NCBI GenBank assembly: GCA_900546225.1
Contig: URBZ01000002.1
Span: 78,411 to 142,410, forward strand
DNA: 64,000 nt
From: an uncultured Rickettsiales bacterium
Lineage (GTDB): Bacteria; Pseudomonadota; Alphaproteobacteria; Rs-D84
Direction: 5' to 3'
Position 1 is the stretch's first letter. Each line of letters starts with the position of its first letter. The notes below the pieces were generated by a model. It saw only the letters and a list, made by a program, of their open reading frames with translations, had not been told where the DNA came from and searched no databases. Both the position numbers and the translations under genes were made by a program. Positions 26,159 through 52,903 of the stretch are shown here, in pieces.

Positions 26159-26248
26159 GGATGGGTGGCAGAGCGGTCGAATGCGACGGTCTTGAAAACC
26201 GCTGAAGGGGCAACTCTTCCGGGGGTTCGAATCCCTCCCCATCCGCCA
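26159..26248 (+). tRNA. tRNA-Ser (anticodon TGA), type II, CCA encoded
   Basis: Acceptor GGATGGG/CCCATCC, discriminator G, CCA. Anticodon loop CTTGAAA. Long variable arm. T-arm GGGGGTTCGAATCCCTC. Followed by terminator hairpin CATCCCGTGG..CCACGGGATG + T-run (26258-26292). Confidence 0.8.
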
Positions 26249-26476
26249 GGAAAATTAGACATCCCGTGGTAATCCCACGGGATGTTCTTTTTCGCCCCAT
26301 TTCCGGCGGTTTTTCTGCACGATGTTACCGGTGTATATTATCCCTTGCACTCAATCCGCCCAAAATCCAGCAACTTATATACCTTGCCCAAAATCTCGAC
26401 GCCAGTTTCTTGTTGTTTTTTGTGGATTTTATAATAATTTGTTTTAACATAAAACGAATAAAACGACAGAAATCAA

Positions 26477-27451
26477 ATGACACAAGATAATAAAGTAATA
26501 AAATTAGAAACTTTTTCCACTCATTTCTTTACAAATGGGGCAGACAAGCATTTTATAATAGCGGAAGATTATAAAATATTTATAGAAAGCATAGAACAGA
26601 TACTAGCGAACATAAATACGGAATTACTGAAAGGACAAGCAAAGTACGAATTATGCATTGTTGCAAATAAAGAAGGTGGTTTTTGGAGTACTGTTGGTGT
26701 GCTTGGGACTTTAATAAGTATACCTGCTGCATTGGATTCAGAACTTATACATGGTTTCTATACAGGATTAACTGGACACGATTATGATTTAAGAAGTGTC
26801 GGTGAAAATGTTGGAAGTTTTTTACGAGATGCAACTGTCGGTATTTTTTCTAAAAATGCGACAGAACTGTCGAAAATTATACCCAAAGAATTGAATCTAG
26901 ACAAAGCGATTTATGCTAAAAATGGGTTCTATCGTATGTGCGCTACAAATCAAGACATTAGGGGGGTGTCTTTTTCTGATAGCAATGAGCCAGAAATTCA
27001 AAAGAAAGATTTTGTAAATTATATTGTGTCCGATACCGACAAAAATTTGCCAGCAGAACAGTTTATAGATATTGTTACAATTGTTAAATCGGTAAATGTA
27101 AAAAGTGATGCTAAATGGTCGGTAAAAATTGGCGAAAGTGCCAAACCTAAATCTGTAGAAATGTTAGACGACGAATTTAAAAAAGAATTCCTATCTGGCC
27201 GATATGCAATAAAACAGACCGAACAAGATGACACGATGACGGTTTTATTAGAAAAAAAGAAAAAATATGTCAACGGACATGAACAAGACGCAGGTTTATC
27301 CATAGTAAAAGTATATAAATTTAATGATACACAAATATTACCAATTCCATCAGATATCGCTCATAAAACACGCCGTCCAAAAATAGATTTGTTTAATTTT
27401 CAAGATAATATTACAACTGATTCTTCCATGCAATCTGAAACAAATCGTTAA
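26477..27451 (+). CDS. hypothetical protein (first gene of the AT-rich island)
   Basis: 324 aa ORF, low GC, no recognisable motif. Confidence 0.4.
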   Translation: MTQDNKVIKLETFSTHFFTNGADKHFIIAEDYKIFIESIEQILANINTELLKGQAKYELCIVANKEGGFWSTVGVLGTLISIPAALDSELIHGFYTGLTGHDYDLRSVGENVGSFLRDATVGIFSKNATELSKIIPKELNLDKAIYAKNGFYRMCATNQDIRGVSFSDSNEPEIQKKDFVNYIVSDTDKNLPAEQFIDIVTIVKSVNVKSDAKWSVKIGESAKPKSVEMLDDEFKKEFLSGRYAIKQTEQDDTMTVLLEKKKKYVNGHEQDAGLSIVKVYKFNDTQILPIPSDIAHKTRRPKIDLFNFQDNITTDSSMQSETNR

Positions 27452-27710
27452 CGTTGATTTTGAATTTCCCTGACAAGATTTCGTTAATCTTGTCCGGATT
27501 CATATATGCCAGGTCGAGGTGGCGATAAAACTGACGTGGGGATGTGTGTTCGGATGCGATGATTTTGTCTGCATCGCCACATTCTTCATATGTTTCCCGA
27601 TACTTCCATGCGATGGCAAAGGCTTTGACGATCAGGAGATTATTATCGGTGACGGTCAAGACTCTGTTCTTGGATTTATTAAACACTGTGTTCACATACT
27701 GACGTAGCAC
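27411..27710 (-). pseudogene. N-terminal fragment of a P4-type tyrosine integrase (arm-binding DUF4102-like region only)
   Basis: 99 aa; LLIVKAFAIAWKYRETY...SPRQFYRHLDLAYMNPDKI matches the LYLxVxPxGxKxWxxRYR...LGxYPxxSLAxAR N-terminal integrase pattern. No catalytic domain follows. Confidence 0.3.
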
Positions 27711-27979
27711 AATCGGTATGGTTAAAACTATTCTGTTGCCGCCACAGCTGTAGAATTGGCCGGTAAATCACCAGAAATGACCAAGAAATTATTGGCAGCA
27801 TCGGTGGGAAATAATGTACTGATTGCAACCGGTTACACCATATACCATTACTTTGCTTAGCATTTAAAAGTTTATTATAATCTTATAATCATCAATAAGT
27901 TATGCCAGAAGCCGCGATATAATTTTGTTGCAATTGTTCGTTTTTGTACTAGTATCAAGTGGGTGGGGAGAGGACAACT

Positions 27980-29152
27980 ATGAAAGGTGCCACAATGCTT
28001 TTACGCAATAATTTATTTCGTTTTGAGAAGCCGGACAATTTCCAAAATCTTTCAACTTCCAGATTAATGAATGGTTTGGTTTATGATTTTAACGATCCTT
28101 ATATTCCATTTTTTACACCAATTGGTACACGACTGTTCAACAACATAGAAAATATATTTAAACAAAATGCTATGCGTATTGATTGTAATGAGGTTATTAT
28201 TCCACAATTAATGACCACAGAGTTATTGACCCAAGGTCAAGAAATTGGTGAATTGTTTGGGCGTAAAGTAATGCATCTATCAGGTACGATGGCAGAGTTC
28301 CATCTTCTTACATCTCCGGAGATGATGTTTATAAATATGTTGAAAAAAAATAACATAGAGAGTAATGCGCTGCCAATACATTACTATTTTGTATCTAATT
28401 TTTTCAGAGATATGCATGATCCAAAAAACATACTTCGAACTAAGCAATTGCGTGTTATTGCAGGTATTTCTTTTGACAAAACACAGAATGATAGATTGAA
28501 GACAGAAAATAAACTGTTACAAACTTTGCACAACACGTTTGTTGATTGTAAAGTCCCATTCTTAGCAGAGTATGGCTCTAGTGGATTTACGTGCGAATAT
28601 TTTTACATGAATTCCAAAGAAACAGAAAACTATATAATTCCAAGCATAAATCCGCACAAGAAAACAAAAGCTCTCAGCTTCGCAATGATTTATGATTATG
28701 GTCAAGAATGTCCATTTGATGTTTTACACAAAAATTCAGTAACAGGGCTAAAAGACAAAACCTTTATGACATCATACGCAATAAGCGCCCAGCGATTACT
28801 TTATGTAATAATGGATTCGTGCAGAGATAGCAAAGGCTTTTCAATGCCATCTAATATCCGTCCATACGATGTCGCGCTCATAACAAATGAACAGCAATCG
28901 GATATAGCGCAGAAAATGGCGCGAGATTTGTCATGCAGTGGTATCTCTTCCTATATAGACAATATGTTTACTAAGGCGCACGTTAAGCGTCTGGATGTTG
29001 CCGATTACATAGGAGTCGGATTAAAAATTGTTAATAAGAATGATAAGTTTACTGTCTTTAACCGCGATGGAGAGATGCTGATAACAGGCTTCGCACCAGA
29101 CCTGATTATTTCAGCGGTTAAGGATTCGATTATAGCACAAAAACAAAAATAG
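27980..29152 (+). CDS. class IIa aminoacyl-tRNA synthetase paralog (ProRS/HisRS/ThrRS-like catalytic core plus a C-terminal anticodon-binding-like domain)
   Basis: 390 aa from ATG 27980 (RBS GGAGAGGA). Motif-1-like VIIPQLMTTELLTQGQ. Motif-2-like FFRDMHDPKNILRTKQLRVIAGISFD. Motif-3-like SYAISAQRLLYVIMD. C-terminal PYDVALITNEQ...GISSYIDN...DYIGVGLKIVNK..FTVFNRDGE resembles the HGTP anticodon-binding fold. Confidence 0.55.
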   Translation: MKGATMLLRNNLFRFEKPDNFQNLSTSRLMNGLVYDFNDPYIPFFTPIGTRLFNNIENIFKQNAMRIDCNEVIIPQLMTTELLTQGQEIGELFGRKVMHLSGTMAEFHLLTSPEMMFINMLKKNNIESNALPIHYYFVSNFFRDMHDPKNILRTKQLRVIAGISFDKTQNDRLKTENKLLQTLHNTFVDCKVPFLAEYGSSGFTCEYFYMNSKETENYIIPSINPHKKTKALSFAMIYDYGQECPFDVLHKNSVTGLKDKTFMTSYAISAQRLLYVIMDSCRDSKGFSMPSNIRPYDVALITNEQQSDIAQKMARDLSCSGISSYIDNMFTKAHVKRLDVADYIGVGLKIVNKNDKFTVFNRDGEMLITGFAPDLIISAVKDSIIAQKQK

Positions 29153-29221
29153 TTAAACTGCTTTGCGAGAAGAAAGATACTGTAATTTTCAGAAACAGTA
29201 TAGTGGCTTTTTGAAAAACCA

Positions 29222-29252
29222 GAAAATGCTTGGTAATAATTACATTACTACC
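29222..29252. terminator. bidirectional terminator between the convergent aaRS-like gene and the MccF-like gene (GCTTGGTA...TACCAAGC flanked by A/T runs)
   Basis: 8-bp inverted repeat with A-run upstream and T-run downstream. Confidence 0.5.
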
Positions 29253-29271
29253 AAGCAAAATTTTTACCCGC

Positions 29272-30312
29272 TTAGATAACAGCATTTTCTAAGATAGAAA
29301 ACTTTTTATTTATCATATCCATCTCTGCCAATGCGCCATATGGCAGGTAAAACATAGGGTCTGTGTGTCCGAAATCCATTTGGGTTATAATAGGCATATC
29401 ACTACGACCACATTCGCGTGTGATTGTCAGTAATGCATTTTCGTAAATTGATAAATTGTCTCTGCTGCCTTTTGCCCGTCCCATAATAATCCCCGATATT
29501 CTGTTAAGGATTCCTTGGGCTGCTAAACTGCGCAACCAATACAAAAGCATATCTTCTGGTGGCAAGCTTTCGGACGTTTCAAGAAATAAAATTGCTTTAT
29601 CAAATTCATCCGTTTTAGGAAATAGCTCTGTCCCTGTCAGCATCAATAATACCTCAAAACAACCACCAATCAATCTGCCACGCACTACAGAATTACCTTG
29701 CAAATAATTTGGCCCAGTATATGGATACAGTTTCCGTTTGATTTTTAAATTTTCAGGATATGTCCAATCTAAAAATTCGTCTGTCCAACCATCGGTTGCG
29801 GGTAAAATTTCCCCGATGACATCAGTAGCAAATAATGTTTTCTTTGTTTGCTCTATTGTATATGGAAACAAGCTGACATTTTCGCCGAACCCAGCCATTA
29901 CGGTAGGTCCATAGATAGAGCTTAATCCCGCTTTATAGCACATAAAGTGAATTGCGGTTGGATCAGAATACCCCAAAAAAATCTTTGGATTATTTTTGAT
30001 GATATTCAAATCCAGATATGGGAATAATCTGATACAATCATCACCACCAATGATAGAAATAATCGCTTTTACTTCTGGATTTTCAAACGCCCACATCAGG
30101 TCTTTTGCACGTTCTTCGGGATGTTCATATAAATAATCAATTGATTGCAAAGCGTTCGGAGTTTCTATCACTTTTAGCCCAAAGTTATTTTCTATTTGAC
30201 TTTTCCCCCATTGATATTGATGCGGGAAACGACTTGCTGAACCATAAGAGCAACTAATTGCTGCAACTGTATCGCCAACTTGCAGGGCTTTGGGTTTTAT
30301 TAATGTTTTCAT
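29272..30312 (-). CDS. S66-family serine peptidase, MccF-like (microcin C7 self-immunity / LD-carboxypeptidase fold)
   Basis: 346 aa (MccF is about 344, LdcA about 304). Motifs VGDTVAAIS, IIGGDD, GYSDPTAIH (nucleophile Ser), ...MDFGHTDPMFYLPYGALAEMD (catalytic His). RBS AAGGGAGAA. Confidence 0.75.
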   Translation of the reverse strand: MKTLIKPKALQVGDTVAAISCSYGSASRFPHQYQWGKSQIENNFGLKVIETPNALQSIDYLYEHPEERAKDLMWAFENPEVKAIISIIGGDDCIRLFPYLDLNIIKNNPKIFLGYSDPTAIHFMCYKAGLSSIYGPTVMAGFGENVSLFPYTIEQTKKTLFATDVIGEILPATDGWTDEFLDWTYPENLKIKRKLYPYTGPNYLQGNSVVRGRLIGGCFEVLLMLTGTELFPKTDEFDKAILFLETSESLPPEDMLLYWLRSLAAQGILNRISGIIMGRAKGSRDNLSIYENALLTITRECGRSDMPIITQMDFGHTDPMFYLPYGALAEMDMINKKFSILENAVI

Positions 30313-30345
30313 GCTGTTTTCTCCCTTGGTTTTATATTCGGAGCA

Positions 30346-38987: not shown

Positions 38988-39224
38988 TCAAAAACGTAAT
39001 GCCATGGATATTAAAACAAGCCCGTGTGACCGCTGATTTGTTCGTTGTCGATGTAAATGACCCCTTGGGAAAACGCATCGCATTGGTCTTTGAATATGCA
39101 CCCCAGAAACGCCAACAATTCCTTTTTGAATTCTGTCCACCACGGACCAGCTTCGTTCGGGAATAATATGTGATTTTATAAGTTCCCTTTCTTGCCCACA
39201 AAATTTACAAATTCTAACTACCAT
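38988..39224 (-). pseudogene. truncated HNH-type protein fragment (N-terminal CxxC...HIIPE only)
   Basis: 78 aa. MVVRICKFCGQERELIKSHIIPE resembles the N-terminus of the 346-aa HNH-like protein at 55602..56642 (CIFCGKKPENKNKEHVIPQWL). The rest of the fragment is low-complexity. Confidence 0.3.
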
Positions 39225-39434
39225 ACGGTAAAAATAGTTTTTTTAATGTGATTGTCAAGATTTAGAACCACCCATACTCAATATAGACATCATTTGAAAT
39301 ATCGACAAAAAACATTCAACTCCAAGTTGTATTTTTCAAATACATACACAATATTTCCTAAAAACGCATAAGACAGTCAATAAATACATAACACACATGC
39401 AAATTCAATCAATCATAAAAAGGGACTTATAAAA

Positions 39435-41735
39435 TTATATTTTTATACTCAATGCGTTAAAATGCTTTTTGTCTGTACTTTTGATAAAATGGAACAAATC
39501 TGCAATTTCGTCTCGGCCAGCCACATAGCTAAAGTTCTGACATCCGGAAATCGCGCCAACACCATTCGAATGAGAAAACGCATTGGCCACGCCCCATAAA
39601 TAGTGAAATCTATTATTATCATTTTCTGTCAGACAGTTAAACTTTTTCAAATACGAATTTGTATTAGGAATCTTTGCATCCAAGTAAGTTTCTAGTACCC
39701 GTCGAATAAGATTACCTATGCATACGTCTGGGGGTGTTCGTTTATTCTGATAAAATTCATTTAATTTCTGTACAAGATCCAAATATTCAGAAGTACTGTT
39801 TTGTAAGTAATCACTAGCCATTCTAATCTTTGAACCCACTGATGCTATTTTTTGTATTTCAAATATCTTGAAATTATTCTTATCTATATGTTTCATAGCT
39901 TCTCTAATTTTTACAAAAAAATAGAAATTATGTGTCAGCAATATTACTTGCTCACATTTTTTTATAGTGGTAACTATCCAGTCACCTATTTGGAATAGAT
40001 TCTTACTATCCAAGCTAGAAACAGGATCATCAATAACTATTATTGGACTTTCCTTTCCGGCTTTTTTCATCGATTGAATTGGAATGATAAAATACAAAAA
40101 TGCGATAAGAGTTTTCTCACCTTCGCTTAGATTTTTTGCATCAACGAATGTACCATCGTCAAGCTTTCTTTGTATTGTATAAACATTCTCCCTTGGGCCC
40201 TCTCTAAAAGAGATATTATTTAATGCAGATTGTTCCAATGCTTTATTGATCAACATAATAATTTTAGACTTCTCGGCCAACTTACGCTTACAATCCAGTT
40301 TCTGCTTTTCTAAATCACCTAATCTTTGTTTGTCTGTATCCCTATCTTTTGTTTTTTGTTTTATTTTTTCATCCATTATATTTAATGTCTGTGAATTCTT
40401 TTGGATATAAAACAGAACCACTTGCTGCTTATATTTTACTTTTCTACTTTCCAGAGAATCTATAATTGCATTGTGTTGTTGTATTATAACCTCTATCGTC
40501 TTTATCGATTTTATTAAACATTGTAAATTATCATATATCTGATTTTCGTACGTTATAGAATACGTTGTCTCCAAATTAAGTGCTTTTTTTGCAACAGATT
40601 CATCTAATTTTTCTAAGAGTGGTTTCAGCTCTATCAATATGTTATTTATTTGATTCTTTTCTGCAATATACCTATCATACGCACTGTCCCTAGATAATTT
40701 AGAAGCATCCGGCAAAGATATTTCAACTTGTTCTATAAGTTCCCTATTATCTCTCAAGACATCTATTAACGTCCAAAAAGCTTTTTCTTGCATATCAAAA
40801 ACAACATCTTTCTTGACCAACTCTTTTATTTCTTGATAACGCTGCTGCCAGAAATCATCGGCAATCTTTTGATTACAAAACAAACAATTAGAATGATTAC
40901 CCCGGTGCAATGCCAAGCCACTTTCTAACCACTGTTTTATATTCTCTGTTCCAGGATTGGAATTTCTGGATAACGATGTCTGCAAAATATCTATTATCGA
41001 TTTATACGCATCAATATTGAAATCTGCATCAAAGTTTCTTAATTTATTGACTATATTTAATTCTATTTTCGTTTTTATTGGTTCAATAAAAATATCTCTT
41101 GCGTGATTTTTTTCTTCTTCACTAATGCGTTCCTCTTTATCCTGTTGCACACGTTCTAAATCTATCTTTAATTGCTTTTGTGTATACTTCTGCGGGCTAT
41201 CAATATGCAAGCAAATACGTATTTCTTTTGCAACATTACTTAGAAAATCATTTTTTTGTTGTTCTAGCTTTTGCAGCTCTATATTTGACTTTAAGTCCGT
41301 ACCACCACCAACAACAAGGGTTTCAATATCCGCATTGATTTTATTTAGTTTTTCTGTAATTTTTATATTTTGATCACCAATAATAATATCAACTTTGTTT
41401 GCTCGAGATTTTTTTAAGGAAAGATTATTCTCTATAAAATCCGTATTAAAAACTTTTATTTTATCTATCAATGGCCCATCTACTACAGAACGAAAAACCT
41501 TTCTTTTTCCGCCAACTTTGTAACACAACTCGCCTTTAGAAAAATTGTACAGCACGTTATTTTCATTGTCTACGTATTGCATTTGACCACGACTGATACA
41601 TTCAAACATTCGACTAAGAGTTGTTTTCCCAGTGCCATTGTAACCATAAAACAGATTGTATTTTGCTAATTTTACTGTTTCTGACTGCTTACGAAAACTA
41701 CCTATGTTAGAAATCTTTTGAATAGCATCTATCAT
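39435..41735 (-). CDS. RloC/PrrC-family AAA ATPase with coiled-coil insertion (predicted anticodon-nuclease-type abortive-infection protein)
   Basis: 766 aa. Walker A GYNGTGKTT. Long coiled coil with CLFCNQ (CxxC, zinc-hook-like). ABC signature NLSEGEKTLIAFLYF. Walker B IIVIDDPVSSLD. H-loop LLTHNFYF. C-terminal about 160 aa with IRRVLE (RxxxE), then His about 33 aa later in RFHYLW (PrrC-like ACNase spacing). Confidence 0.55.
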   Translation of the reverse strand: MIDAIQKISNIGSFRKQSETVKLAKYNLFYGYNGTGKTTLSRMFECISRGQMQYVDNENNVLYNFSKGELCYKVGGKRKVFRSVVDGPLIDKIKVFNTDFIENNLSLKKSRANKVDIIIGDQNIKITEKLNKINADIETLVVGGGTDLKSNIELQKLEQQKNDFLSNVAKEIRICLHIDSPQKYTQKQLKIDLERVQQDKEERISEEEKNHARDIFIEPIKTKIELNIVNKLRNFDADFNIDAYKSIIDILQTSLSRNSNPGTENIKQWLESGLALHRGNHSNCLFCNQKIADDFWQQRYQEIKELVKKDVVFDMQEKAFWTLIDVLRDNRELIEQVEISLPDASKLSRDSAYDRYIAEKNQINNILIELKPLLEKLDESVAKKALNLETTYSITYENQIYDNLQCLIKSIKTIEVIIQQHNAIIDSLESRKVKYKQQVVLFYIQKNSQTLNIMDEKIKQKTKDRDTDKQRLGDLEKQKLDCKRKLAEKSKIIMLINKALEQSALNNISFREGPRENVYTIQRKLDDGTFVDAKNLSEGEKTLIAFLYFIIPIQSMKKAGKESPIIVIDDPVSSLDSKNLFQIGDWIVTTIKKCEQVILLTHNFYFFVKIREAMKHIDKNNFKIFEIQKIASVGSKIRMASDYLQNSTSEYLDLVQKLNEFYQNKRTPPDVCIGNLIRRVLETYLDAKIPNTNSYLKKFNCLTENDNNRFHYLWGVANAFSHSNGVGAISGCQNFSYVAGRDEIADLFHFIKSTDKKHFNALSIKI

Positions 41736-41752
41736 CGTGTAACTTCTTATGC

Positions 41753-43078
41753 TTATTTTAGATCCTCAAATGCTTTCGCCATTGTCGGGTTATTTCTTGT
41801 CAAACGTTTTATTGATAAATTCTGCGCTTTATCATTAGCCAAACGCAGATTATTTTCAGTCCCGAGTAAGGCATCCTTTATTTTTTGCAAGTGATCTATT
41901 GTCTTATCAATTTCTTCTATAGCCTTCTTGAATTTGTCGCTGGCTGTTTTATAATTCCGACCAAAGCGATCTCTAAACTCATTCATTTCTGCTTCAAAAT
42001 TTGAGACATCGATATTGGCCTGCTTGTATTCTGCAATTTGTTGTTTGTATTGAACAGAATTCAGTGCCGCATTCCGTAACAATGTTATAATTGGAATAAA
42101 ACATTGTGGTCTTACAACATACATTTTTGGATATTTGTGCGACACATCAACAATACCAGCATTATATAATTCATTGTCAGATTCCAGCAACGAAACCAAA
42201 ACAGCATATTCACAATTTTTATCCTTTCGGTCTTTATCAAGTTCTTTGAAAAAATCTTCATTTTTGTGTTTTGTGGCTGTTGTATCCATCTCGTTTTTCA
42301 TTTCAAACATAATGGATATAAATTCCGTTTTTTTATCAACATCTGCATAATCACGAAATATAAAATCGCCCTTACTTCCATTCTTGACTTCGTTGTCTTT
42401 TTCGAAATATGCATTTGGGAATGCTGCAGGCCGCATCCGTTCAAATTCAATATGACAGTGTTGTTCCAATGTCTCTCCTACCATTTTTGTGGACATTTTT
42501 GTTTTCATGTCCTTGTATAGCGCAATTTCGACATCTTTTGCCTTTAATTGTGCATCATATTCACTTTTTAATGTTTGTTGTTTTAATTCAATATCTTGTG
42601 CGGCCGCCTTTACTTCGCCCTGCAAGGCAAGAATTTGCGCGTCTTTTTCAAAAAGCATATCCTTTGATTTACTTAATGCCTTTTCTACTGCAATTACCTT
42701 TTCCTGCTCTGATGCATTTATACGTGCTTTGAATTCGACAATTTGTTCATTCAAACATGCAATAGACTTTGCTTTGTCCGCTTCTATACCCGCAATTTTT
42801 AACTTCATTTCAGCCGCAGCATCGCGCTCTGCCGATGAAATTTTCTCTTTGAGTGTTGCTATTTCTTCTTTTAACGCAGAAATTGATAATTCTTTATCGT
42901 TTTTTGCCTGTTCTTTTAATAAGTCGATTTCACTTTTTGATTGCGCCTTATATTGTTGTAATCGCAACGCAACCTCCTTGTCAAACTCAACATTTTTAAT
43001 TTGACTTACAATCGCTGCATAACCCGATTCATCAATAGTGAATTGCGTATTACATTTCGGACATTTTATCTCGTGCAT
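41753..43078 (-). CDS. DUF2130 family protein (N-terminal zinc ribbon, long coiled coil, C-terminal nuclease-like domain)
   Basis: 441 aa from ATG 43078 (RBS AAGGAGAAATAT). N-terminus MHEIKCPKCNTQFTIDESGYAAIV is typical of DUF2130. 17 nt upstream of the RloC-like gene. Confidence 0.65.
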   Translation of the reverse strand: MHEIKCPKCNTQFTIDESGYAAIVSQIKNVEFDKEVALRLQQYKAQSKSEIDLLKEQAKNDKELSISALKEEIATLKEKISSAERDAAAEMKLKIAGIEADKAKSIACLNEQIVEFKARINASEQEKVIAVEKALSKSKDMLFEKDAQILALQGEVKAAAQDIELKQQTLKSEYDAQLKAKDVEIALYKDMKTKMSTKMVGETLEQHCHIEFERMRPAAFPNAYFEKDNEVKNGSKGDFIFRDYADVDKKTEFISIMFEMKNEMDTTATKHKNEDFFKELDKDRKDKNCEYAVLVSLLESDNELYNAGIVDVSHKYPKMYVVRPQCFIPIITLLRNAALNSVQYKQQIAEYKQANIDVSNFEAEMNEFRDRFGRNYKTASDKFKKAIEEIDKTIDHLQKIKDALLGTENNLRLANDKAQNLSIKRLTRNNPTMAKAFEDLK

Positions 43079-43088
43079 ATATTTCTCC

Positions 43089-43421
43089 TTAAATCTTGGA
43101 CACATCTAGGTCAACATGCGCGACACACTGCTGCTCACATTTGTGTTGACACTGTTCATCTGTGTACCATTGACCATCACGCACAACCAAGCGAGACATT
43201 TTTGCAATTTTAAAGCAACGCCACGACGCAGGTATTTCCGTTGGTATCTGCCCTTTGCTGCTTTCTCCAGCAAACTGATACCCTAGCAACTGTTCTTGGC
43301 CTTGGTCATTCAATCCGATTATATGTGGACACACTTCTCGATGAAATCCGTCATAATCAAAAAACAATTGCTGTTTGTGCTCAATTGCACCCCTAATAAC
43401 CATATAGTTTTCAGACGCCAT
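43089..43421 (-). CDS. small WYL-like domain protein (no HTH)
   Basis: About 110 aa from MASENY (RBS AAGAGGAAAAAGC). QLFFDYDGFHREVCPHIIG...LLGYQF...IPASWRCFKIAKMSRL fits the WYL-fold pattern (R.v.P..l...W.R.FrldRI). Stop is 10 nt before the DUF2130 start. Confidence 0.35.
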   Translation of the reverse strand: MASENYMVIRGAIEHKQQLFFDYDGFHREVCPHIIGLNDQGQEQLLGYQFAGESSKGQIPTEIPASWRCFKIAKMSRLVVRDGQWYTDEQCQHKCEQQCVAHVDLDVSKI

Positions 43422-44021
43422 GCTTTTTCCTCTTGTTTTACAATAAAGAGATAGCACACATTAGGAACAAAAGCAATAACTTATTGTAATTACTGTATTT
43501 TAGGAAATTTTTCCCAATATTTTTGTGATATATTGCTTTTATGTGCAACATAACTGGATATATTGTCGCGCATCACGCGCTTTTTTGCACCAATACAGAG
43601 TATTACAGACCACAATTCAACCACAGGTTGTACAAAGACGAAAATTCAATTTATTTTTTACAAACATCCTAACCATCAGACAAAATTCGCGTGATACGCG
43701 AATTTATGCAAATATTCAATCACCGGTTACACAATGCGTTTTTTATAAAGAAATCAACCAATACTAGAATTTACACCTAATTTTGTACTATATGCAAACT
43801 TTTTTACAACTTTACACATTTATACCATTTAGACAATCGACATCTGAAAACCGCCCTGCAATTCAACCATTGGTTGAATTGTTTATATTTTTCTATCACT
43901 GCTTACAAAAACAGCTGTTTTTTCTACCACAGATTGTATTTTATGACAAAATCAACTTATTGTAGAATACACTGTTCGTTTTTTGAGATTTTACGTAATT
44001 ATCACACAAAAAACATATCTC

Positions 44022-44915
44022 GTTATAGGCTGCTTCTCAAATCGTCTTTGATATAATCATTTTTTCGTTCGCTTTTCGCAACTTACAGTTATAGGTTGCT
44101 TCTCAAATCGTCTTTGATATAATGTGAATTACCAGAAATAGGCAATTTAACCTGTTATAGGTTGCTTCTCAAATCGTCTTTGATATAATTTATATGCTTA
44201 GCATGTGCGAGCGTCTACGGTTATAGGTTGCTTCTCAAATCGTCTTTGATATAATCCAGCATTCGCAACGGTACAAATCAACCCGGTTATAGGTTGCTTC
44301 TCAAATCGTCTTTGATATAATCGAAATATGTAGAACAGAGCACTCGAAGGAGTTATAGGTTGCTTCTCAAATCGTCTTTGATATAATGGCACATCTTTGT
44401 CAACCTGCGCCTGCAAAGTTATAGGTTGCTTCTCAAATCGTCTTTGATATAATGTCAACAGTCGCAATAACATTTCCCATCGTGTTATAGGTTGCTTCTC
44501 AAATCGTCTTTGATATAATAAAAAGGATTAAGCTATGATACTCAGAGATGTTATAGGTTGCTTCTCAAATCGTCTTTGATATAATGTCAACAGTCGCAAT
44601 AACATTTCCCATCGTGTTATAGGTTGCTTCTCAAATCGTCTTTGATATAATAACACAATCCCGGTGTGGTATGTAAACCTGGTTATAGGTTGCTTCTCAA
44701 ATCGTCTTTGATATAATCGAATTCAAAGACCTTGATTGGGCGCATTTGTTATAGGTTGCTTCTCAAATCGTCTTTGATATAATATTCGGGGTTGTACCAC
44801 GTAACACAATTCCGTTATAGGTTGCTTCTCAAATCGTCTTTGATATAATAAACCATTCGAACACATTTACACGTGCAATGTTATAGGTTGCTTCTCAAAT
44901 CGTCTTTGATATAAT
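44022..44915 (+). CRISPR. CRISPR array, 14 x 36-bp repeats (GTTATAGGTTGCTTCTCAAATCGTCTTTGATATAAT), 13 spacers of 30 nt, period 66
   Basis: Repeat starts at 44022, 44088, 44154, 44220, 44286, 44352, 44418, 44484, 44550, 44616, 44682, 44748, 44814, 44880. The first repeat is degenerate (GGC for GGT). Spacers 7 and 9 are identical. Each repeat ends in TTTGATATAAT (extended -10). Confidence 0.95.
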
Positions 44916-44922
44916 AGACACA

Positions 44923-44957
44923 CAAAAACCCACTGATAAAAGTGGGTTTTTGTGTAT
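44923..44957. terminator. bidirectional hairpin terminator between the array and cas2 (CACAAAAACCCACT-GATAAA-AGTGGGTTTTTGTG)
   Basis: 14-bp inverted repeat seen directly in the sequence; symmetric, so functional on both strands. Confidence 0.5.
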
Positions 44958-45018
44958 TATATTCAACAAAAAACGTACGTATTGCCATCGGCTGATGACG
45001 AATCGTCTTGTTTTTTTA

Positions 45019-45351
45019 TCAAAACATCAGTAATTGTTGCGAACTGATTTTTTCTGCCGTGGGCGCATCGCCAACCAAAAACAGCATATCTGCGAATTGT
45101 TTTTCCGTGACGGTTAAAACCCTGATTGAACCAGATGGCGGCGTCAAATGTCGCAATCGTTGTAAATGCTTCTCCATTCCGGCCAACCCCTTGACTATTC
45201 GGGAATATACCGAGAATTGCATCATGTAATACCCGTCGTTCAACAAGTCGTTTCTGAAACGCGTAGCATATTTCCGTTCACGCTTTGTGCCAACGGGCAA
45301 ATCAAAGAATACTATTATACGCATAAATTTTTCCTGACGGTTGTACAACAT
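45019..45351 (-). CDS. cas2: CRISPR-associated endoribonuclease Cas2
   Basis: 110 aa; MLYNRQEKFMRIIVFFDLPV...RFRNDLLNDGYYMMQFSVY. Confidence 0.85.
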   Translation of the reverse strand: MLYNRQEKFMRIIVFFDLPVGTKRERKYATRFRNDLLNDGYYMMQFSVYSRIVKGLAGMEKHLQRLRHLTPPSGSIRVLTVTEKQFADMLFLVGDAPTAEKISSQQLLMF

Positions 45352-45352
45352 T

Positions 45353-46267
45353 TTAGTTCTGGGTATTTACTATTTCTGGTGCTGATTTTATAGATGGCAA
45401 TTTCAATGCATCTAAGTTTTTATTACAAAAACATGTTGCCACGGATTCTGCATACAGCGGCATGGCATTCAGCACCGAATGTCGAACACCACCAAAGGCG
45501 CAACTGTGCAATAATACCGACACCAATCGTTGTTTGATATTTGGGGTTAAATGCGCACAACCATCAAAATCAAATGACAGCACAATAAAGTCCACAAATG
45601 GCCGCCACGGTTCAATCATGTCGTCGACCATGCAAAAATTATCAAGTTTGTTACAATGATGTACGCCATAAAAAGGTAACAGACCCGCACCAACCGCGCT
45701 GCGTGCGACACACCCGCGTAATATGGCATAGCCGTAATTCAATGCATGATTTCGTACATCGGCATCATCACTGCGGTTGAAATTTTCCCACAGGGCCGAC
45801 CAATAGATACGAGCCGCAAGCCCCTCTATATTTTTAGTGTCACCAGACGCGACATTTTCAGCCAAAATTTCCAAACGCTTATATGCGGGATTATCACACA
45901 ACTTTAAGATTGCCGATTGATTTCGAATTTTTTGTTTAACAATTTCTTGCCACATACGTTTACGGAATGGCAACGACGATGCAATTTGTGCATGCGCAAT
46001 TTCAGTATATCTGGAATTATTATGAAACGGAAAGAATGCACCATTCGGCAGGTGTGACGCATCACAAGAAAACGCAACCACGCCGTTTTCAGCCAATTCA
46101 GACATCAGCGCAGATGTAATTTGAATCTGGGGATTTTCCAGTATGACAACCGCGATATCTTCTAATGGGATATCTTGGACACCACCGGTGTCACCAGTCC
46201 AGTGCAGTTGCTTGTGCCGAACACAAATCCGACATGGATTTGTCAGGGTCAGAATACGCCAAGACAT
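45353..46267 (-). CDS. cas1: CRISPR-associated endonuclease Cas1 (type II)
   Basis: 304 aa; typical Cas1 beta-sandwich and alpha-helical domain motifs (HALNYGYAILRG...); 1-nt gap to cas2. Confidence 0.9.
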   Translation of the reverse strand: MSWRILTLTNPCRICVRHKQLHWTGDTGGVQDIPLEDIAVVILENPQIQITSALMSELAENGVVAFSCDASHLPNGAFFPFHNNSRYTEIAHAQIASSLPFRKRMWQEIVKQKIRNQSAILKLCDNPAYKRLEILAENVASGDTKNIEGLAARIYWSALWENFNRSDDADVRNHALNYGYAILRGCVARSAVGAGLLPFYGVHHCNKLDNFCMVDDMIEPWRPFVDFIVLSFDFDGCAHLTPNIKQRLVSVLLHSCAFGGVRHSVLNAMPLYAESVATCFCNKNLDALKLPSIKSAPEIVNTQN

Positions 46268-46315
46268 TTAATTGTCCTTTGTTTGTATCCTTTCCCACAC
46301 AGGTGATATAGTGCA

Positions 46316-49548: not shown

Positions 49549-51324
49549 TTATCGGTTGATCATTGTGGGGATTACGATTTCGTCGTTGTAATAGCCCAAG
49601 AATCGTTTTCCGGTGGCGCAGTATATTTTCTGCAACGAATCCTTGTATTCGCGCACGGCCGTGACCCAACGGTTTTCAATATCGGATTGCGCCCCTTGGT
49701 ATCCGGCGTATGCACCCAACGCACCACCAGCACCCGCGCCAATCAATGTGCCTTTTAATCTGGCCTTGTTACCAAAGTCAATAATACCACCATCGGACGC
49801 ATCGACCATTATTGGGTAGAAGTCGCTGATGCTGTATTCGCCGTCCAAAGCATATCCAGCACCACTGGACGTGCGGCCCAAGATTGTATGCCCTGATAAA
49901 TCTGTTTTCAATTTGGCCCAATCAGAACGCTTGTAACCAAATGCCTTGTCATTGACGTCGGCAATCATCGCAGGAATCTGTGTACCGGTGGCAATGGTGG
50001 CACTGGAAATCTTGGCATACATCGCACTGTCAGGATTTGCACCATTTTTCATTTCGTTTTTTTCGGTCAGATAAAACTGTTTTGCTGAATCAGCTTTGAC
50101 CTTTTCGAACCCTTCCTTGGCCACAGCTTCAATGTCTTTGTTCGGGTATGCCTCTAGTTTAATATTCAACAGGGTTTCTTGTTTACAACCAGTATCGTCT
50201 GAGTTACATACTAATGTTGTTTCGTCGCCAGTGTTGTAATAAGCGTTTTTACCAGACAGTGCCGTACTCTTTCTGATAACACCCCACAGGCACTTGGAAT
50301 TTTTATTCTGTGGCTCGGCGGGTTTATCGTCCGTTGTGGCACTGGCGGACGCGGACGCAGTCGCGCTGGCTGAACCGGTATTATTGGACGTATCTGACTT
50401 TTCCTGATTTGATTTTGGTTTTTCGGTGATGCTGGGTATTTTGCAATCCTCGATACGCAGGACAGATTCCCCACTGGCGGCAATGTTGCCAATCATACTG
50501 CCCGCGGCGGCGTTGACACCAGTTGACAGAATTGTGTCACCTGCAACCTTGCCAGAATAGGCATTGCCCGCCATCAGTGCTGCGCCGCTGAGTGCGCCGA
50601 TGATTGTGCCGGTGGTTTTATGTTTGCCACCGCCCAATATACTGTCACTGCCGATTTCGTTTTTGCCGGCGGCATTGCCCGCCAGACCACCAATCACCGT
50701 GCCCGCCGCGATGCGCAGGCCGGCGTTTTGTTTCTGTTCCGCATTTAATACCTGAACCACGTCCGCACGGGTCGGTTCGTTGTCCGCGGGGAATGTAACC
50801 TGTGCCGCGTCGGTGGTGTATGAAAATTCAGGAAAGTCAGAGATATTACATTTGACCGCATCGCCAGCCGCCAAATTTGCGCGCGCCAAAACGGCATCAG
50901 AACCGTCCAGTCCCATTTGATAGCCACGCAATTCGACAACCGCGACACACGTTGATGCGCCACCCGCACCATTGCCAACCGTCGGCGAATCCCATGCAAA
51001 TTCGCCATTTGGATATACCATTGCGCAAGAATCCAGTGTTGCAATACTGACACGCGAATCCGTTTCGCCACGTGATAACTTTTGTGCCAATTCACGATTT
51101 GCCACCCGCACCGGCAGGTTTGTTTCCGCGTCCGCCGACTGGGTCGTGGCAGTTGGTGTGGCGGCGGCCGCTGCGGCCGCTGCAATCTGTTCACGTTGGG
51201 CATTTACCTGTTGATAGCCGGCTGCATAACTGCGCGATGCGTTGCCAACACGCACTGCGGCGGCGGCGTGGCCGCCAGATAATAGAGCATAGATAATAGA
51301 TAATAGATAATAGTTATATTTCAT
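49549..51324 (-). CDS. secreted Gly/Ala-rich (glycine-zipper-like) hypothetical protein
   Basis: 591 aa. N-terminal signal-like MKYNYYLLSIIYALLSGGHAAAA; these first codons are encoded by the left inverted repeat of the adjacent cassette. Many GxxxG repeats. Confidence 0.45.
   Translation of the reverse strand: MKYNYYLLSIIYALLSGGHAAAAVRVGNASRSYAAGYQQVNAQREQIAAAAAAAATPTATTQSADAETNLPVRVANRELAQKLSRGETDSRVSIATLDSCAMVYPNGEFAWDSPTVGNGAGGASTCVAVVELRGYQMGLDGSDAVLARANLAAGDAVKCNISDFPEFSYTTDAAQVTFPADNEPTRADVVQVLNAEQKQNAGLRIAAGTVIGGLAGNAAGKNEIGSDSILGGGKHKTTGTIIGALSGAALMAGNAYSGKVAGDTILSTGVNAAAGSMIGNIAASGESVLRIEDCKIPSITEKPKSNQEKSDTSNNTGSASATASASASATTDDKPAEPQNKNSKCLWGVIRKSTALSGKNAYYNTGDETTLVCNSDDTGCKQETLLNIKLEAYPNKDIEAVAKEGFEKVKADSAKQFYLTEKNEMKNGANPDSAMYAKISSATIATGTQIPAMIADVNDKAFGYKRSDWAKLKTDLSGHTILGRTSSGAGYALDGEYSISDFYPIMVDASDGGIIDFGNKARLKGTLIGAGAGGALGAYAGYQGAQSDIENRWVTAVREYKDSLQKIYCATGKRFLGYYNDEIVIPTMINR
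51278..51324. repeat. left inverted repeat (GATAATAGAGCATAGATAATAGATAATAGATAATAG) of the four-helix-bundle cassette, with AGATAAT tandem units
   Basis: Its reverse complement TATCTATGCTCTATTATC recurs at 51684-51701. Confidence 0.6.
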
Positions 51325-51683: not shown

Positions 51684-51720
51684 ATCTATGCTCTATTATC
51701 TATGCTCTATGCTCTAAAAC
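51681..51720. repeat. right inverted repeat (CATATCTATGCTCTATTATCTATGCTCTATGCTCT), with TATGCTC tandem units
   Basis: Shares the 18-bp core TATCTATGCTCTATTATC in inverse orientation with 51278-51324. Contains the start codon of the 4HB gene and the stop codon of the OMP gene. Confidence 0.6.
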
Positions 51721-52793: not shown

Positions 52794-52903
52794 GTAAAAT
52801 CCATTTCCTTTTGCGTACATTATATCATAAAAATCCCTAAGAGTACAAAACAAAAATCCCGCATTACGCGGGATTTAGTCCAATATGTTTTGTTGTTTTA
52901 TGT

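What the first reader, a model, noticed from the sequence alone, without database searches (positions are those of the whole stretch)
26249..43460. Low-GC accessory island downstream of tRNA-Ser(TGA), with a decayed P4-type integrase
Base composition drops sharply after the tRNA-Ser terminator. The block contains only hypothetical, biosynthetic and defence genes. A 99-aa ORF (27411..27710) matches only the N-terminal arm-binding region of P4-family integrases. This suggests an old tRNA-targeted integrative element whose integrase has been inactivated. The CRISPR-Cas locus (to about 49.5 kb) may be part of the same accessory block.
Basis: partly seen in the sequence, partly recalled or inferred. 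Interest (0 to 1): 0.5.

Follow-up and report, generated by a model that had tools for sequence, protein, structure and literature searches.

The report
Decayed serine-integrase phage island at tRNA-Ser
The low-GC block after tRNA-Ser is a real accessory island, but its 'integrase relic' is the tail end of a phage serine integrase rather than a P4-type integrase, and the island is an ordinary patchwork of decayed phage insertions carrying defence genes and an uncharacterised enzyme cassette.

Summary
GC falls from 0.47 to 0.36 just after tRNA-Ser(TGA), and DNA similarity to the closest relatives stops 4 nt past the tRNA.

The integrase call is wrong. The 99-aa ORF has no Pfam hit at all. It is 50% identical to the last 107 residues of 500-550-aa large serine recombinases (Resolvase + Recombinase domains). 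Intact copies sit at the same spot, pointing at the same tRNA, in related gut Alphaproteobacteria (Candidatus Enterousia-like MAGs). One of these lies in a prophage-like element with a terminase.

An att-type direct repeat exists, at 33.4 kb rather than 43-49 kb. CCGCCAGGAA (the tRNA 3' end plus 4 nt) recurs at 33415-33424, flanked by arms that match phage att arms elsewhere. It bounds a 7.2-kb dead element. A second element's arm follows; its integrase is gone here, but a fragment survives in a 99%-identical strain.

The site is a clade-wide hotspot with varied cargo. Empty sites run tRNA-Ser to NrdG/NrdD, never to U32/OMP. CRISPR-Cas borders the hotspot in other species too and has near-core GC.

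Verdict: a new member of a known kind. One side lead: a recurring cassette of AsnA-like ligase, MccF-like peptidase, methyltransferases and a variable second ligase.

The parts
26159..26248 (+). tRNA-Ser(TGA), the integration target. Its last 6 nt plus the next 4 nt (26243-26252, CCGCCAGGAA) form the common core.
   Evidence: ARAGORN; Rfam. Similarity to the closest relatives L003 and L005 ends at 26252.
26253..26420 (+). Arm (a): phage-derived P' arm with its own terminator hairpin. Together with the tRNA it forms attL.
   Evidence: The same arm follows tRNA-Ser only in genomes carrying family-2 serine recombinases. In an IMG/VR viral contig it lies next to an X-like arm and the core, with no tRNA, which is the attP arrangement.
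26477..27451 (+). 324-aa low-GC gene (GC 0.33) in the slot between attL and the integrase. It may be a phage accessory (moron) or defence-candidate gene.
   Evidence: Weak hits to NCBIfam LAPAL_fam 'putative phage structural protein' (9.6e-11, below cutoff), phrog_3243 and PADLOC PDC-S42. Different genes occupy this slot in relatives.
27411..27767 (-). C-terminal remnant of a large serine recombinase. The ORF is 27411-27710, and the reading frame stays open and conserved up to 27767. It corresponds to residues ~424-532 of a 532-aa enzyme. The catalytic Resolvase and Recombinase domains are missing.
   Evidence: Profile search; Pfam on full-length hits; BLASTP against P0089, 50% identity, E 8e-33; tblastn. 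It is 81.6% nt identical to the 3' end of the intact gene in L007, with similarity ending at 27738.
27959..33090 (.). Five-gene cassette: ProRS-like class II paralog (27959-29152, +), MccF-like S66 peptidase (29272-30312, -), two SAM methyltransferases (30346-31236 and 31238-32068, -), and an AsnA-like/AsnRS-core ligase (32086-33090, -).
   Evidence: Pfam and NCBIfam; PDB sequence search, with S66 at 3e-103 to the B. anthracis MccF homologue 5f5x. The cassette recurs in four other fetched contexts.
33230..33414 (+). X arm: the P-type arm at the right end of the 7.2-kb element, containing AAATTCCC/GGGAATTT repeats.
   Evidence: Homologous arms sit immediately before the core in L009, L083, L002, L053, L087 and L090. 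Repeats.
33415..33424 (+). Second copy of the core CCGCCAGGAA, a direct repeat of 26243-26252.
   Evidence: Exactly two copies in 64 kb, both on the + strand; 0.08 expected.
33425..33585 (+). Arm (b): P' arm of a second (family-1) serine-recombinase element. The integrase that should follow it is deleted here.
   Evidence: It aligns with the 167-nt spacer between the stop codon of the intact recombinase and tRNA-Ser in L085. The same arm is followed directly by a recombinase or a fragment of one in L009, L070, L083 and L085.
33576..39158 (+). Strain-variable 5.6-kb low-GC module of hypothetical proteins: 369 aa, a 327-aa protein with a MORN repeat, 128 aa, a 228-aa protein with a DnaJ domain, and 408 aa.
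   Evidence: Strain L083 (99% identical on both sides) replaces it with ~1 kb that carries a 101-aa family-1 recombinase fragment. Pfam, PHROGs and PADLOC are uninformative.
39435..43457 (-). Defence-type genes: AAA_13 ATPase (39435-41735), DUF2130 (41753-43105) and a 122-aa protein (43089-43457).
   Evidence: AAA_13 at 5e-88; PADLOC candidate system PDC-S06 at 3e-91; DUF2130 at 5e-90. Present in strains L083 and L084.
44022..49264 (-). Type II-C CRISPR-Cas. The array spans 44022-44915 (14 repeats of 36 nt and 13 spacers of 30 nt, one spacer duplicated). cas2 is 45019-45351, cas1 45353-46267 and cas9 46316-49264.
   Evidence: The same locus lies next to the X-core-arm(b) site in L087 and L090. 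GC is 0.447.
49549..55379 (-). The conserved core resumes here (591-aa, 379-aa and 382-aa proteins, then U32 peptidase). This is the right-hand synteny boundary.
   Evidence: tblastn synteny across 80 loci; blastn similarity to L007 and L002 resumes at 49582-49583.

Best explanation
The region is the local state of a clade-wide integration hotspot at the 3' end of tRNA-Ser(TGA) in small-genome gut Alphaproteobacteria (Candidatus Enterousia / UBA6376-like MAGs).

Temperate phage-like elements that encode a ~530-aa large serine recombinase integrate by crossover in or next to CCGCCAG(G)AA, the end of the tRNA. The integrase gene ends up within 0.2-1.4 kb of the tRNA and points towards it.

The window holds the wreck of at least two such elements in tandem.

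Element 2 (26253-33414):
- It keeps both junctions: tRNA/core/arm (a) on the left, and X arm/core on the right.
- Its integrase is cut down to the last ~109 codons, so it cannot move.
- Its interior is now a five-gene aaRS-like/MccF-like cassette.

Element 1 (from 33425):
- It keeps only its integrase-proximal arm.
- Its integrase is deleted in the window. A fragment remains in a sister strain.
- Low-GC cargo follows: a strain-variable module, then AAA_13/DUF2130 defence genes.
- CRISPR-Cas is an older resident at the distal edge of the hotspot.

Shown: the identity of the relic, the repeat and arms, intact elements at the same site elsewhere, variable content, and composition.

Inferred: the order of integrations, that deletions and replacements produced the present content, and that the recombinases use this core.
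For: Identity of the relic:
- A profile built from the ORF family finds 500-550-aa proteins, matching only at their C-termini.
- All eight of the ~470-550-aa (near-)full-length proteins tested have Resolvase + Recombinase domains.
- BLASTP to P0089 covers residues 426-532 of 532, at 50% identity and E 8e-33.

Intact elements at the same site:
- tblastn finds full-length recombinases at the same position and orientation after tRNA-Ser in L007, L011, L033, L035, L057, L070, L076, L082 and L085.
- It finds only C-terminal fragments in the window and in about 12 other loci.
- In L085 the intact gene ends 167 nt from the tRNA.
- The L007 element carries DUF2924, a ParB/methylase, DUF5681 and a large terminase.

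att structure:
- CCGCCAGGAA occurs twice, in direct orientation, 7.17 kb apart.
- Arm (b) after the second copy aligns with the L085 spacer between integrase and tRNA, and the alignment stops exactly at the core.
- Arm classes after the tRNA track recombinase families.
- A viral contig has X-like arm, core and arm (a) together with no tRNA, which is the attP arrangement.
- Elements bounded by direct repeats also occur in L068 (8.15 kb) and L002 (9.8 kb).

Hotspot behaviour:
- 51 of 68 related species have LGT followed by tRNA-Ser. Downstream content varies from 0.9 kb (empty sites, next gene NrdG) to more than 10 kb, and is usually lower in GC.
- The closest relative, L003 (93% nt), has a type I restriction-modification system and a reverse-transcriptase-like gene there instead.

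Composition.
Against: - No phage structural or packaging gene is left in the window, so a phage origin rests on relatives.
- Serine integrases do not normally recombine attP with a hybrid attL or attR site. A tandem array therefore needs either an attR that still looks like attB (the X arm matches the tRNA 3' end at only about 18 of 24 positions) or homologous recombination.
- No distal attR or native terminator arm was found for element 1.
- The aaRS-like cassette travels with other integrases elsewhere, including a P4-type tyrosine integrase in L091. How it entered element 2 is unknown.
- The relic has core-like GC3 (0.54), unlike its neighbours. This fits a host-adapted phage but was not tested.
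- All comparisons use MAG or metagenome contigs, which can be misassembled at repeats.
Confidence: 0.75

Rival explanations
1. One reading: a single old integrative element with a P4-type tyrosine integrase at tRNA-Ser, whose integrase survives only as its N-terminal arm-binding domain.
For: The block is next to a tRNA, is low in GC and holds a short recombinase-related ORF. A P4-type integrase (Arm-DNA-bind_3 + Phage_integrase) does accompany the same aaRS-like cassette in another genome, L091.
Against: Pfam gives no hit at E<=10. The ORF aligns to residues 426-532 of serine recombinases. Intact serine recombinases occupy this position in relatives. No tyrosine integrase ORF occurs anywhere in 26-50 kb.
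Confidence: 0.03
2. Hotspot turnover without site-specific integration. Most of the present content arrived or was swapped by homologous recombination between conserved flanks or shared arms, as in a defence island. On this view the serine-recombinase relics are incidental scars, not the vehicle of the low-GC cargo.
For: - The 33.6-39.2-kb module differs between 99%-identical strains and has no att sites at its ends.
- L003 has unrelated cargo downstream of a native-type terminator with no recombinase arm.
- The cassette occurs with different mobile-element relics elsewhere.
- The relic has core-like GC3 whereas the cargo does not.
Against: The first 7.2 kb is bounded precisely by the core repeat and by matching att arms. 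Intact elements integrate at exactly this nucleotide in relatives. The two models are not exclusive. This one probably explains 33.6-43.5 kb better than it explains 26.2-33.4 kb.
Confidence: 0.25
3. The 99-aa ORF is not junk. It is a retained small helix-turn-helix protein derived from the recombinase C-terminus, acting for example as a regulator or as a blocker of new integrations.
For: - C-terminal fragments recur in many genomes: 82 short homologues and about 12 loci.
- One relative's matching region hits the resolvase HTH_7 model.
- The frame is intact, GC3 is core-like, and dN/dS is about 0.1.
Against: - The dN/dS comparison is mostly against the C-termini of intact recombinases, so it says nothing about the fragment.
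- The fragment from L001 has the same amino-acid sequence as the intact L033 gene over the compared region, so that truncation is recent.
- Fragment starts differ between genomes, and one carries an in-frame stop (L068).
- The 3' end of the integrase is simply the part nearest the essential tRNA, so it survives deletions.
- The conserved frame extends upstream of any start codon in the window.
Confidence: 0.12
4. The low-GC stretch is native DNA with unusual composition rather than acquired DNA.
For: Another low-GC stretch (60.8-64 kb, glycosyltransferases) shows that this genome tolerates such regions.
Against: None of the island genes from 26.3 to 43.5 kb has a counterpart at this site in the 80 species-level relatives. 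The exceptions are one recombinase C-terminus, one S66 and one DUF2130. Similarity to the closest relatives stops at 26252.
Confidence: 0.02

Closest known systems
Temperate phages and integrative elements that use large serine recombinases (phiC31, Bxb1, TP901-1 and A118-type serine integrases; named from general knowledge)
   Same: Intact relatives have the Resolvase + Recombinase + long C-terminal architecture. The integrase sits next to one att junction. The common core is short (10 bp here). One intact relative has phage-type neighbours: DUF2924, a ParB-methylase and a terminase.
   Different: The target is the extreme 3' end of a tRNA gene, which is the classic habit of tyrosine integrases; serine integrases more often sit in protein-coding genes (general knowledge, not tested here). 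The window copy lacks all catalytic domains and all phage genes. Two elements lie in tandem.
tRNA-linked genomic islands with P4-family tyrosine integrases (pathogenicity-island type)
   Same: It lies next to a tRNA 3' end, has a direct repeat of the tRNA end, is low in GC, carries accessory and defence cargo, and has a degraded recombinase.
   Different: The recombinase family is different, and the Arm-DNA-bind and Phage_integrase domains are absent. The repeat is only 10 bp.
Defence islands and integration hotspots between conserved core genes
   Same: The interval between the same flanking genes holds different defence systems in different relatives: CRISPR-Cas, AAA_13/PDC-S06 and DUF2130 here, and a type I restriction-modification system plus a reverse-transcriptase-like gene in L003. 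Empty sites exist.
   Different: Here the hotspot can be tied to a defined att core and to a specific family of integrases.
Microcin C (mcc) clusters and stand-alone MccF immunity peptidases
   Same: The S66 protein is a close MccF homologue: 3e-103 to B. anthracis Ba3275, and about 1e-37 to 1e-34 to MccF chains. MccF homologues hydrolyse aminoacyl- and peptidyl-adenylates (PMC8323819).
   Different: No MccB-type ThiF adenylyltransferase or precursor peptide was seen. Instead the partners are an AsnA-like ligase, methyltransferases and a second, variable ligase.

Membership tests
P4-type (tyrosine) integrase genomic island | Tyrosine recombinase with a Phage_integrase catalytic domain and/or an Arm-DNA-bind N-terminal domain | tested here: not met
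   Pfam finds nothing for the ORF at E<=10. No such domain occurs in any ORF from 26 to 50 kb. The ORF belongs to serine recombinases.
P4-type (tyrosine) integrase genomic island | Insertion at the 3' end of a tRNA gene, with a direct repeat of that end at the far boundary | tested here: met
   The left junction is at 26252. The 10-bp repeat recurs at 33415-33424. This feature is shared with other element types and does not discriminate.
Large serine recombinase integrative element or prophage | Recombinase with an N-terminal Resolvase catalytic domain, a Recombinase domain and a C-terminal extension | tested here: not met
   The window retains only residues ~424-532. Full-length genes are present at the same site in 9 related loci. 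The window copy is therefore a remnant, not a functional member.
Large serine recombinase integrative element or prophage | attL and attR junctions that share a short core, with arms matching an attP | tested here: met
   The core occurs twice. Arm (b) matches the L085 spacer between integrase and tRNA. Arm (a), the core and an X-like arm are contiguous, with no tRNA, in an IMG/VR contig.
Large serine recombinase integrative element or prophage | The recombinase actually catalyses attP x attB recombination at this core | not testable with these tools
   This needs an in vitro or in vivo recombination assay.
Prophage | Phage packaging, structural or lysis genes | tested here: not met
   None in the window (Pfam, PHROGs). 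The only trace is a weak LAPAL-like hit, below cutoff. These genes are present in the relative L007.
Genomic island or defence hotspot | Content that varies between close relatives, lying between conserved flanks, with anomalous composition | tested here: met
Type II-C CRISPR-Cas | cas9, cas1 and cas2 with an array, and no csn2 or cas4 | tested here: met
   Pfam; array of 14 repeats. No tracrRNA was identified (nothing above gathering threshold in Rfam).
Microcin C-type (mcc) biosynthetic cluster | MccB-like adenylyltransferase with a short precursor peptide, together with MccF | tested here: not met
   Only the MccF-like S66 peptidase is present. Its partners are an AsnA-like ligase, a ProRS-like protein and methyltransferases.

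The most novel reading that the evidence does not exclude
The five-gene cassette at 27959-33090 may be a mobile, uncharacterised small biosynthetic module. Its fixed parts are an AsnA-like (AsnRS-core) ligase, one or two SAM methyltransferases and an MccF-type S66 peptidase. Its variable part is a second amino-acid-activating enzyme: ProRS-like here, and MetRS-like, AlaRS-like or ATP-grasp in other genomes. The proposed product is an aminoacyl or dipeptidyl (possibly nucleotide-linked) antimetabolite, with MccF as self-immunity and the swappable ligase setting the variable residue. The module travels on integrative elements and sits among defence genes in gut Alphaproteobacteria and in a Draconibacterium (Bacteroidota) genome.
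Probability: 0.3. Interest if true: 0.6.

Novelty: new member of a known kind. Interest (0 to 1): 0.33.

Why it matters
For annotating this genome, the report corrects a wrong integrase call. It also gives nucleotide-level boundaries for a dead mobile element: cores at 26243-26252 and 33415-33424.

For the biology of these poorly known, small-genome gut Alphaproteobacteria, it identifies tRNA-Ser(TGA) as a clade-wide docking site for serine-integrase phages. This site is where defence systems and odd enzyme cassettes accumulate, even in genomes of 0.7-1 Mb.

The intact recombinases and their inferred attP and attB pairs are directly testable, and could be of practical interest as new serine integrases.

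The AsnA-like/MccF-like cassette is the only element here that might lead to new chemistry.

Tried and rejected
- A 25-nt search for the tRNA 3' end with up to 3 mismatches found only the tRNA itself.
- The generic repeat finder did not flag the 10-bp core. The repeat was found only after aligning the integrase-tRNA spacer of L085 to the window.
- The word-indexed homologue search returned only short proteins of 168 aa or less. This briefly suggested a stand-alone conserved small protein. The exhaustive profile search and tblastn showed full-length recombinases.
- dN/dS of about 0.1 first looked like evidence that the fragment is functional. I rejected it because the comparison partners are C-termini of intact genes.
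- No extra att cores or X-arm motifs were found in 39-50 kb.
- Short tRNA-Ser k-mers at 38.2 and 38.9 kb fit chance: by my own estimate, about 3 such hits are expected.
- CRISPR spacers gave no match in any fetched locus. Two spacers tried against IMG/VR also gave none.
- PHROGs and PADLOC gave nothing for the hypothetical proteins at 34-39 kb, DUF2130 or the 122-aa protein.
- Literature searches found no description of the AsnA-like/MccF cassette. The search for serine integrases at tRNA-Ser in Alphaproteobacteria listed no title on the subject, and none of the 12 listed papers was opened.
- I did not resolve how the window lineage came to have its flanks swapped. At least two inversions are needed.

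Full report

Yes for composition and gene content. ARAGORN and Rfam both place tRNA-Ser(tga) at 26159-26248 on the + strand. In 1-kb windows GC is mostly 0.43-0.53 up to 26 kb, 0.32-0.39 from 26 to 45 kb, and 0.42-0.51 from 45 to 61 kb. Pooled values:

| Region | GC |
|---|---|
| Flanking core | 0.469 |
| 26253-43460 | 0.359 |
| CRISPR leader and array | 0.34 |
| cas genes | 0.447 |

Third-position GC is about 0.23-0.38 for island genes and about 0.43-0.63 for flank genes.
- a ProRS-like class II paralog;
- an S66 peptidase;
- two SAM methyltransferases;
- an AsnA-like AsnRS-core protein;
- five hypothetical proteins, one with a MORN repeat and one with a DnaJ domain;
- an AAA_13 ATPase that matches the PADLOC candidate system PDC-S06 (3e-91);
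- DUF2130;
- a type II-C CRISPR-Cas locus with 14 repeats.

**2. The 'P4-type integrase' is not one.**

The ORF at 27411-27710 (-) has no Pfam hit, even at E<=10 and even when extended to the 118 codons of open frame. PHROGs and PADLOC also find nothing.

A word-indexed search found 82 homologues, all 168 aa or shorter. One of them was fused to a Resolvase N-terminus. An exhaustive profile search with an alignment of these (A1) then found 466-551-aa proteins that match only through their last ~140 residues. Eight of these proteins were tested. All eight carry both Resolvase (PF00239) and Recombinase (PF07508) domains; in P0130 (466 aa) only the C-terminal part of the Resolvase model is matched. 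The window ORF aligns to residues 426-532 of the 532-aa protein P0089, at 50% identity and E 8e-33.

The ORF is therefore the C-terminal tail of a large serine recombinase. tblastn with P0089 finds nothing else of that gene in the window. Nucleotide similarity to the intact gene of relative L007 ends at 27738. About 423 codons, including the whole catalytic part, have been deleted.

**3. Whose genome, and what do relatives look like?**

A scan of one genome per GTDB species, using the neighbouring Lgt protein as query, returned 80 loci. All are uncultured gut Alphaproteobacteria: Candidatus Enterousia, UBA6376 and MAGs labelled Rickettsiales. The two complete chromosomes among them are 0.72 and 0.96 Mb.

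Sixty-eight of these loci had at least 400 nt after Lgt. In 51 of the 68, tRNA-Ser(tga) follows Lgt in the same orientation.

The content downstream of the tRNA is highly variable:
- In L028 and L080 the next conserved genes, NrdG and NrdD, start 0.9 kb after the tRNA. These are empty sites.
- In other loci they are 2.7, 3.5, 5.9, 6.8 or 8.4 kb away, or beyond the 10 kb fetched.
- GC downstream is lower than upstream in most loci.

The closest relatives are L003 (93% nt), L005 and L006. L003 and L005 lose similarity to the window at position 26252, 4 nt after the tRNA; L006 loses it at 26341. L003 carries a type I restriction-modification system and a reverse-transcriptase-like gene at this site instead. 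The block is therefore acquired, and the site is a hotspot.

**4. Intact integrases at the same nucleotide.**

tblastn with P0089 shows full-length serine recombinases just downstream of tRNA-Ser in L007, L011, L033, L035, L057, L070, L076, L082 and L085. All are on the opposite strand, so they point at the tRNA. Only C-terminal fragments are found in the window, L001 (two copies), L002, L009, L022, L031, L032, L039, L046, L068 and L083 (two copies).

In L085 the intact gene follows a DUF2924 gene and stops 167 nt from the tRNA 3' end. In L007, the closest relative with an intact copy, the gene order is recombinase, DUF2924, ParB-N/DNA methylase, DUF5681, large terminase. That is a prophage-type element.

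C-terminal fragments probably predominate because the 3' end of the integrase is the part nearest the essential tRNA. Deletions that remove the element interior tend to spare it (inference).

**5. The att sites.**

Aligning the L085 spacer between integrase and tRNA to the window showed that 33425-33585 is the same sequence. The similarity stops exactly at TTCCTGGCGG, which is the reverse complement of the tRNA end.

CCGCCAGGAA is the last 6 nt of the tRNA plus the next 4 nt. It occurs exactly twice in the 64 kb, at 26243-26252 and 33415-33424, both on the + strand. Shuffled sequence gives 0.08 copies on average, and none of 100 shuffles had two.

Three kinds of arm can be told apart:
- **Arm (a)** is the sequence after the tRNA in the window (26253-26420). 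It follows tRNA-Ser in the loci that carry family-2 recombinases, the group to which the window relic belongs (76-81% amino-acid identity to L007 and L033).
- **Arm (b)** is 33425-33585. It is followed directly by family-1 recombinases (P0089-like) or their fragments in L085, L070, L009 and L083.
- **The X arm** is 33230-33414. It carries AAATTCCC/GGGAATTT repeats and sits immediately before the core in L009, L083, L002, L087 and L090; a copy also lies ~9.2 kb downstream of the tRNA in L053.

Genomes with an empty site, or with other cargo, have a plain terminator after the tRNA (AAAACGCCCC....GGGGCGTTTT).

An IMG/VR viral contig gives the attP arrangement. It carries family-2-like recombinases (57% identical to P0089). 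About 0.9 kb past each gene it has X-like arm, CCGCCAG(T/G)AA and arm (a) together, with no tRNA.

From these arms I read the window as follows:
- attL is tRNA / core / arm (a).
- A dead family-2 element of 7.17 kb follows.
- Its attR-type end, X arm / core, comes next.
- That end is fused to arm (b) of a second, family-1 element.

Elements bounded by the same repeat also occur in L068 (8.15 kb) and L002 (9.8 kb). Longer partial copies of the tRNA 3' end (24-34 nt) occur in L014, L032, L034, L045 and L070. These point to repeated integrations at this site across the clade.

**6. Structure of the rest of the block.**

A 99%-identical strain (L083) shares 26279-33575 and 39159-42264 with the window. 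In place of 33576-39158 it has ~1 kb that holds a 101-aa family-1 recombinase fragment, directly after arm (b). The window has therefore lost even that fragment and gained a 5.6-kb low-GC module of hypothetical genes. This is strain-level turnover with no recognisable att sites.

A second strain (L084) links h122 and the 5' part of DUF2130 to cas2 and cas1 across a collapsed CRISPR array. No further core or X-arm copy occurs between 33.6 and 49.5 kb, so the distal end of element 1 cannot be defined.

**7. CRISPR-Cas and the right boundary.**

Similarity to the core of relatives resumes at 49582-49583, about 35 nt inside the 3' end of the 591-aa gene, whose stop codon ends at 49549. By synteny, then, the accessory interval is 26253 to about 49548.

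CRISPR-Cas nevertheless differs from the low-GC cargo. Its GC is 0.447. In two other species (L087 and L090, Cas9 89-90% identical) the same locus lies immediately after an X arm-core-arm (b) site and just before LysR-Ogt-NrdG-NrdD. It is 84-87% nt identical to the window there, against 78% for the NrdD region. It looks like a longer-term resident at the distal edge of the hotspot, or one exchanged within the clade.

The compositional boundary is at about 45.0 kb.

**8.

None of the 51 loci does.

The common order is U32, h382, h379, OMP, then ProRS(-), Bax1(-), Lgt(+), tRNA-Ser(+), the variable region, then NrdG(-), NrdD(-). The window, L003, L005 and L006 instead have NrdD-NrdG-Ogt-LysR upstream of ProRS. 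In the window, OMP-U32 follows the island.

With L087 and L090 as the reference, write S1 for the U32-OMP block, S2 for ProRS through tRNA-Ser and the variable region to the X-core-arm (b) site, S3 for the cas locus, and S4 for LysR-NrdD. The relatives read S1-S2-S3-S4. The window, read in reverse complement, is S1-S3-(S2 inverted)-S4. That needs at least two inversions. I did not resolve the path.

**9. Mechanism, and how sure I am.**

- Near certain (about 0.95): the ORF is a serine-recombinase C-terminal remnant, and the block is acquired DNA at a hotspot.
- Well supported (about 0.75): serine-integrase phages dock at the tRNA-Ser 3' end through the CCGCCAG(G)AA core, and 26253-33424 is a dead element of this kind.
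- Less sure (about 0.6): the tandem two-element history. Serine integrases do not normally use hybrid sites. The X arm resembles the tRNA 3' end at about 18 of 24 positions by manual alignment of the sequences, which might make attR a usable pseudo-attB. Homologous recombination between related elements is an alternative.
- Unknown: how the cassette and the later modules got in.

**10. Side lead: the cassette.**

The S66 protein is a close MccF homologue: 3e-103 to B. anthracis Ba3275, and about 1e-37 to 1e-34 to MccF chains. MccF homologues hydrolyse aminoacyl- and peptidyl-adenylates and give resistance to microcin C (PMC8323819).

The AsnA-like protein has 1322 homologues at E<=1e-20. In every context fetched, it sits with an S66 peptidase and a second amino-acid-activating enzyme that varies, and in all but L093 with one or two SAM methyltransferases:

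| Context | Second enzyme |
|---|---|
| Window | ProRS-like |
| L091/L092 | two ProRS-like genes |
| L093 (Draconibacterium) | faint AlaRS-like, plus ATP-grasp |
| L094 | ATP-grasp, plus an Orn/Arg decarboxylase |
| L096 | MetRS-like class I |

The neighbours are mobile-element relics and defence genes. They include a P4-type integrase in L091, GmrSD with a KAP NTPase, and Thoeris.

Relatives carry other S66 or S51 genes at the tRNA-Ser hotspot: a radical SAM + LPG_synthase_C + S66 + PNP_UDP_1 set in L001 and L090, and an S51 peptidase in L002. S51 peptidases also give microcin C resistance (PMC9239234).

I found no paper describing this cassette. A small biosynthesis-plus-immunity module is my preferred reading, at about 0.3 probability. 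A resistance or metabolic cassette is the alternative.

**11. Verdict.**

The finding is real but ordinary in kind. It is a tRNA-linked, mosaic accessory island built on decayed integrative elements. It is a new member of a known kind, and interest is modest.

Noticed in passing
window 27959-33090; also L091/L092, L093, L094, L096: A recurring mobile cassette. An AsnA-like (AsnRS-core) ligase sits with an MccF-like S66 peptidase and a variable second ligase (ProRS-like, MetRS-like, AlaRS-like or ATP-grasp), and in all contexts but L093 with 1-2 SAM methyltransferases. It always lies among mobile-element relics or defence genes. No description was found in the literature.
   Followed up: partly
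window 13.7-26.2 kb and 49.5-55.4 kb, compared with L007-L082, L087 and L090: The flanks of the ProRS-Bax1-Lgt-tRNA-Ser segment are swapped relative to most related species. NrdD/NrdG/Ogt/LysR now lie upstream of ProRS, and OMP/U32 lie after the island. CRISPR-Cas has also changed side. At least two inversions are needed. L003, L005 and L006 share the NrdD-side arrangement.
   Followed up: partly
window 24834-26100: A glycosyltransferase family 6 gene (25127-26038) lies in a 1.27-kb insertion between Lgt and tRNA-Ser. It is absent from L003, L006 and L007, where ~180 bp takes its place, and present in L005, L008 and L013. Its GC is core-like (0.48).
   Followed up: partly
window 60800-64000: A second low-GC stretch (0.37) encodes a GT1/GT4 glycosyltransferase, a hexapeptide-repeat acyltransferase and a 391-aa hypothetical protein. 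It is probably a variable surface-polysaccharide locus.
   Followed up: partly
window 44454-44483 and 44586-44615: One CRISPR spacer (GTCAACAGTCGCAATAACATTTCCCATCGT) is present twice in the array. The first repeat (44022) has one mismatch. In strain L084 the array is collapsed to about one repeat.
   Followed up: partly
L001 8072-13331; L090 3492-9314: Relatives carry a different S66-containing set next to ArgRS: radical SAM, an LPG_synthase_C domain (of the aminoacyl-tRNA-dependent transferase type), S66 and a PNP_UDP_1 nucleoside phosphorylase. L002 has an S51 peptidase beside its recombinase fragment. Genes related to aminoacyl-nucleotide antibiotic resistance recur at this hotspot.
   Followed up: no
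L032 12240-12420; also L014, L034, L041: In several species tRNA-Ser is followed by a native terminator. After that comes a ~170-500-nt segment ending in a second, partial copy of the tRNA 3' end (GGAATCCCTCCCCATCCGCCAGGAA), and then an element arm. These look like scars of earlier integrations, or a pseudo-tRNA.
   Followed up: no
IMGVR_UViG_3300029904_000303 (L098, L099): A 37.5-kb viral contig carries two serine-recombinase genes in the same orientation, ~14.7 kb apart, each followed by an attP-like X arm-core-arm (a) site. It may be a tandem pair of small elements rather than a single phage genome.
   Followed up: no
window 43460-44020: A 560-nt AT-rich non-coding stretch between the 122-aa gene and the CRISPR array contains an imperfect repeat, CAATTCAACCACAGGTTG / CAATTCAACCATTGGTTG, at 43613 and 43859. 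It may be the leader or a tracrRNA region. Rfam found nothing above its gathering threshold.
   Followed up: no
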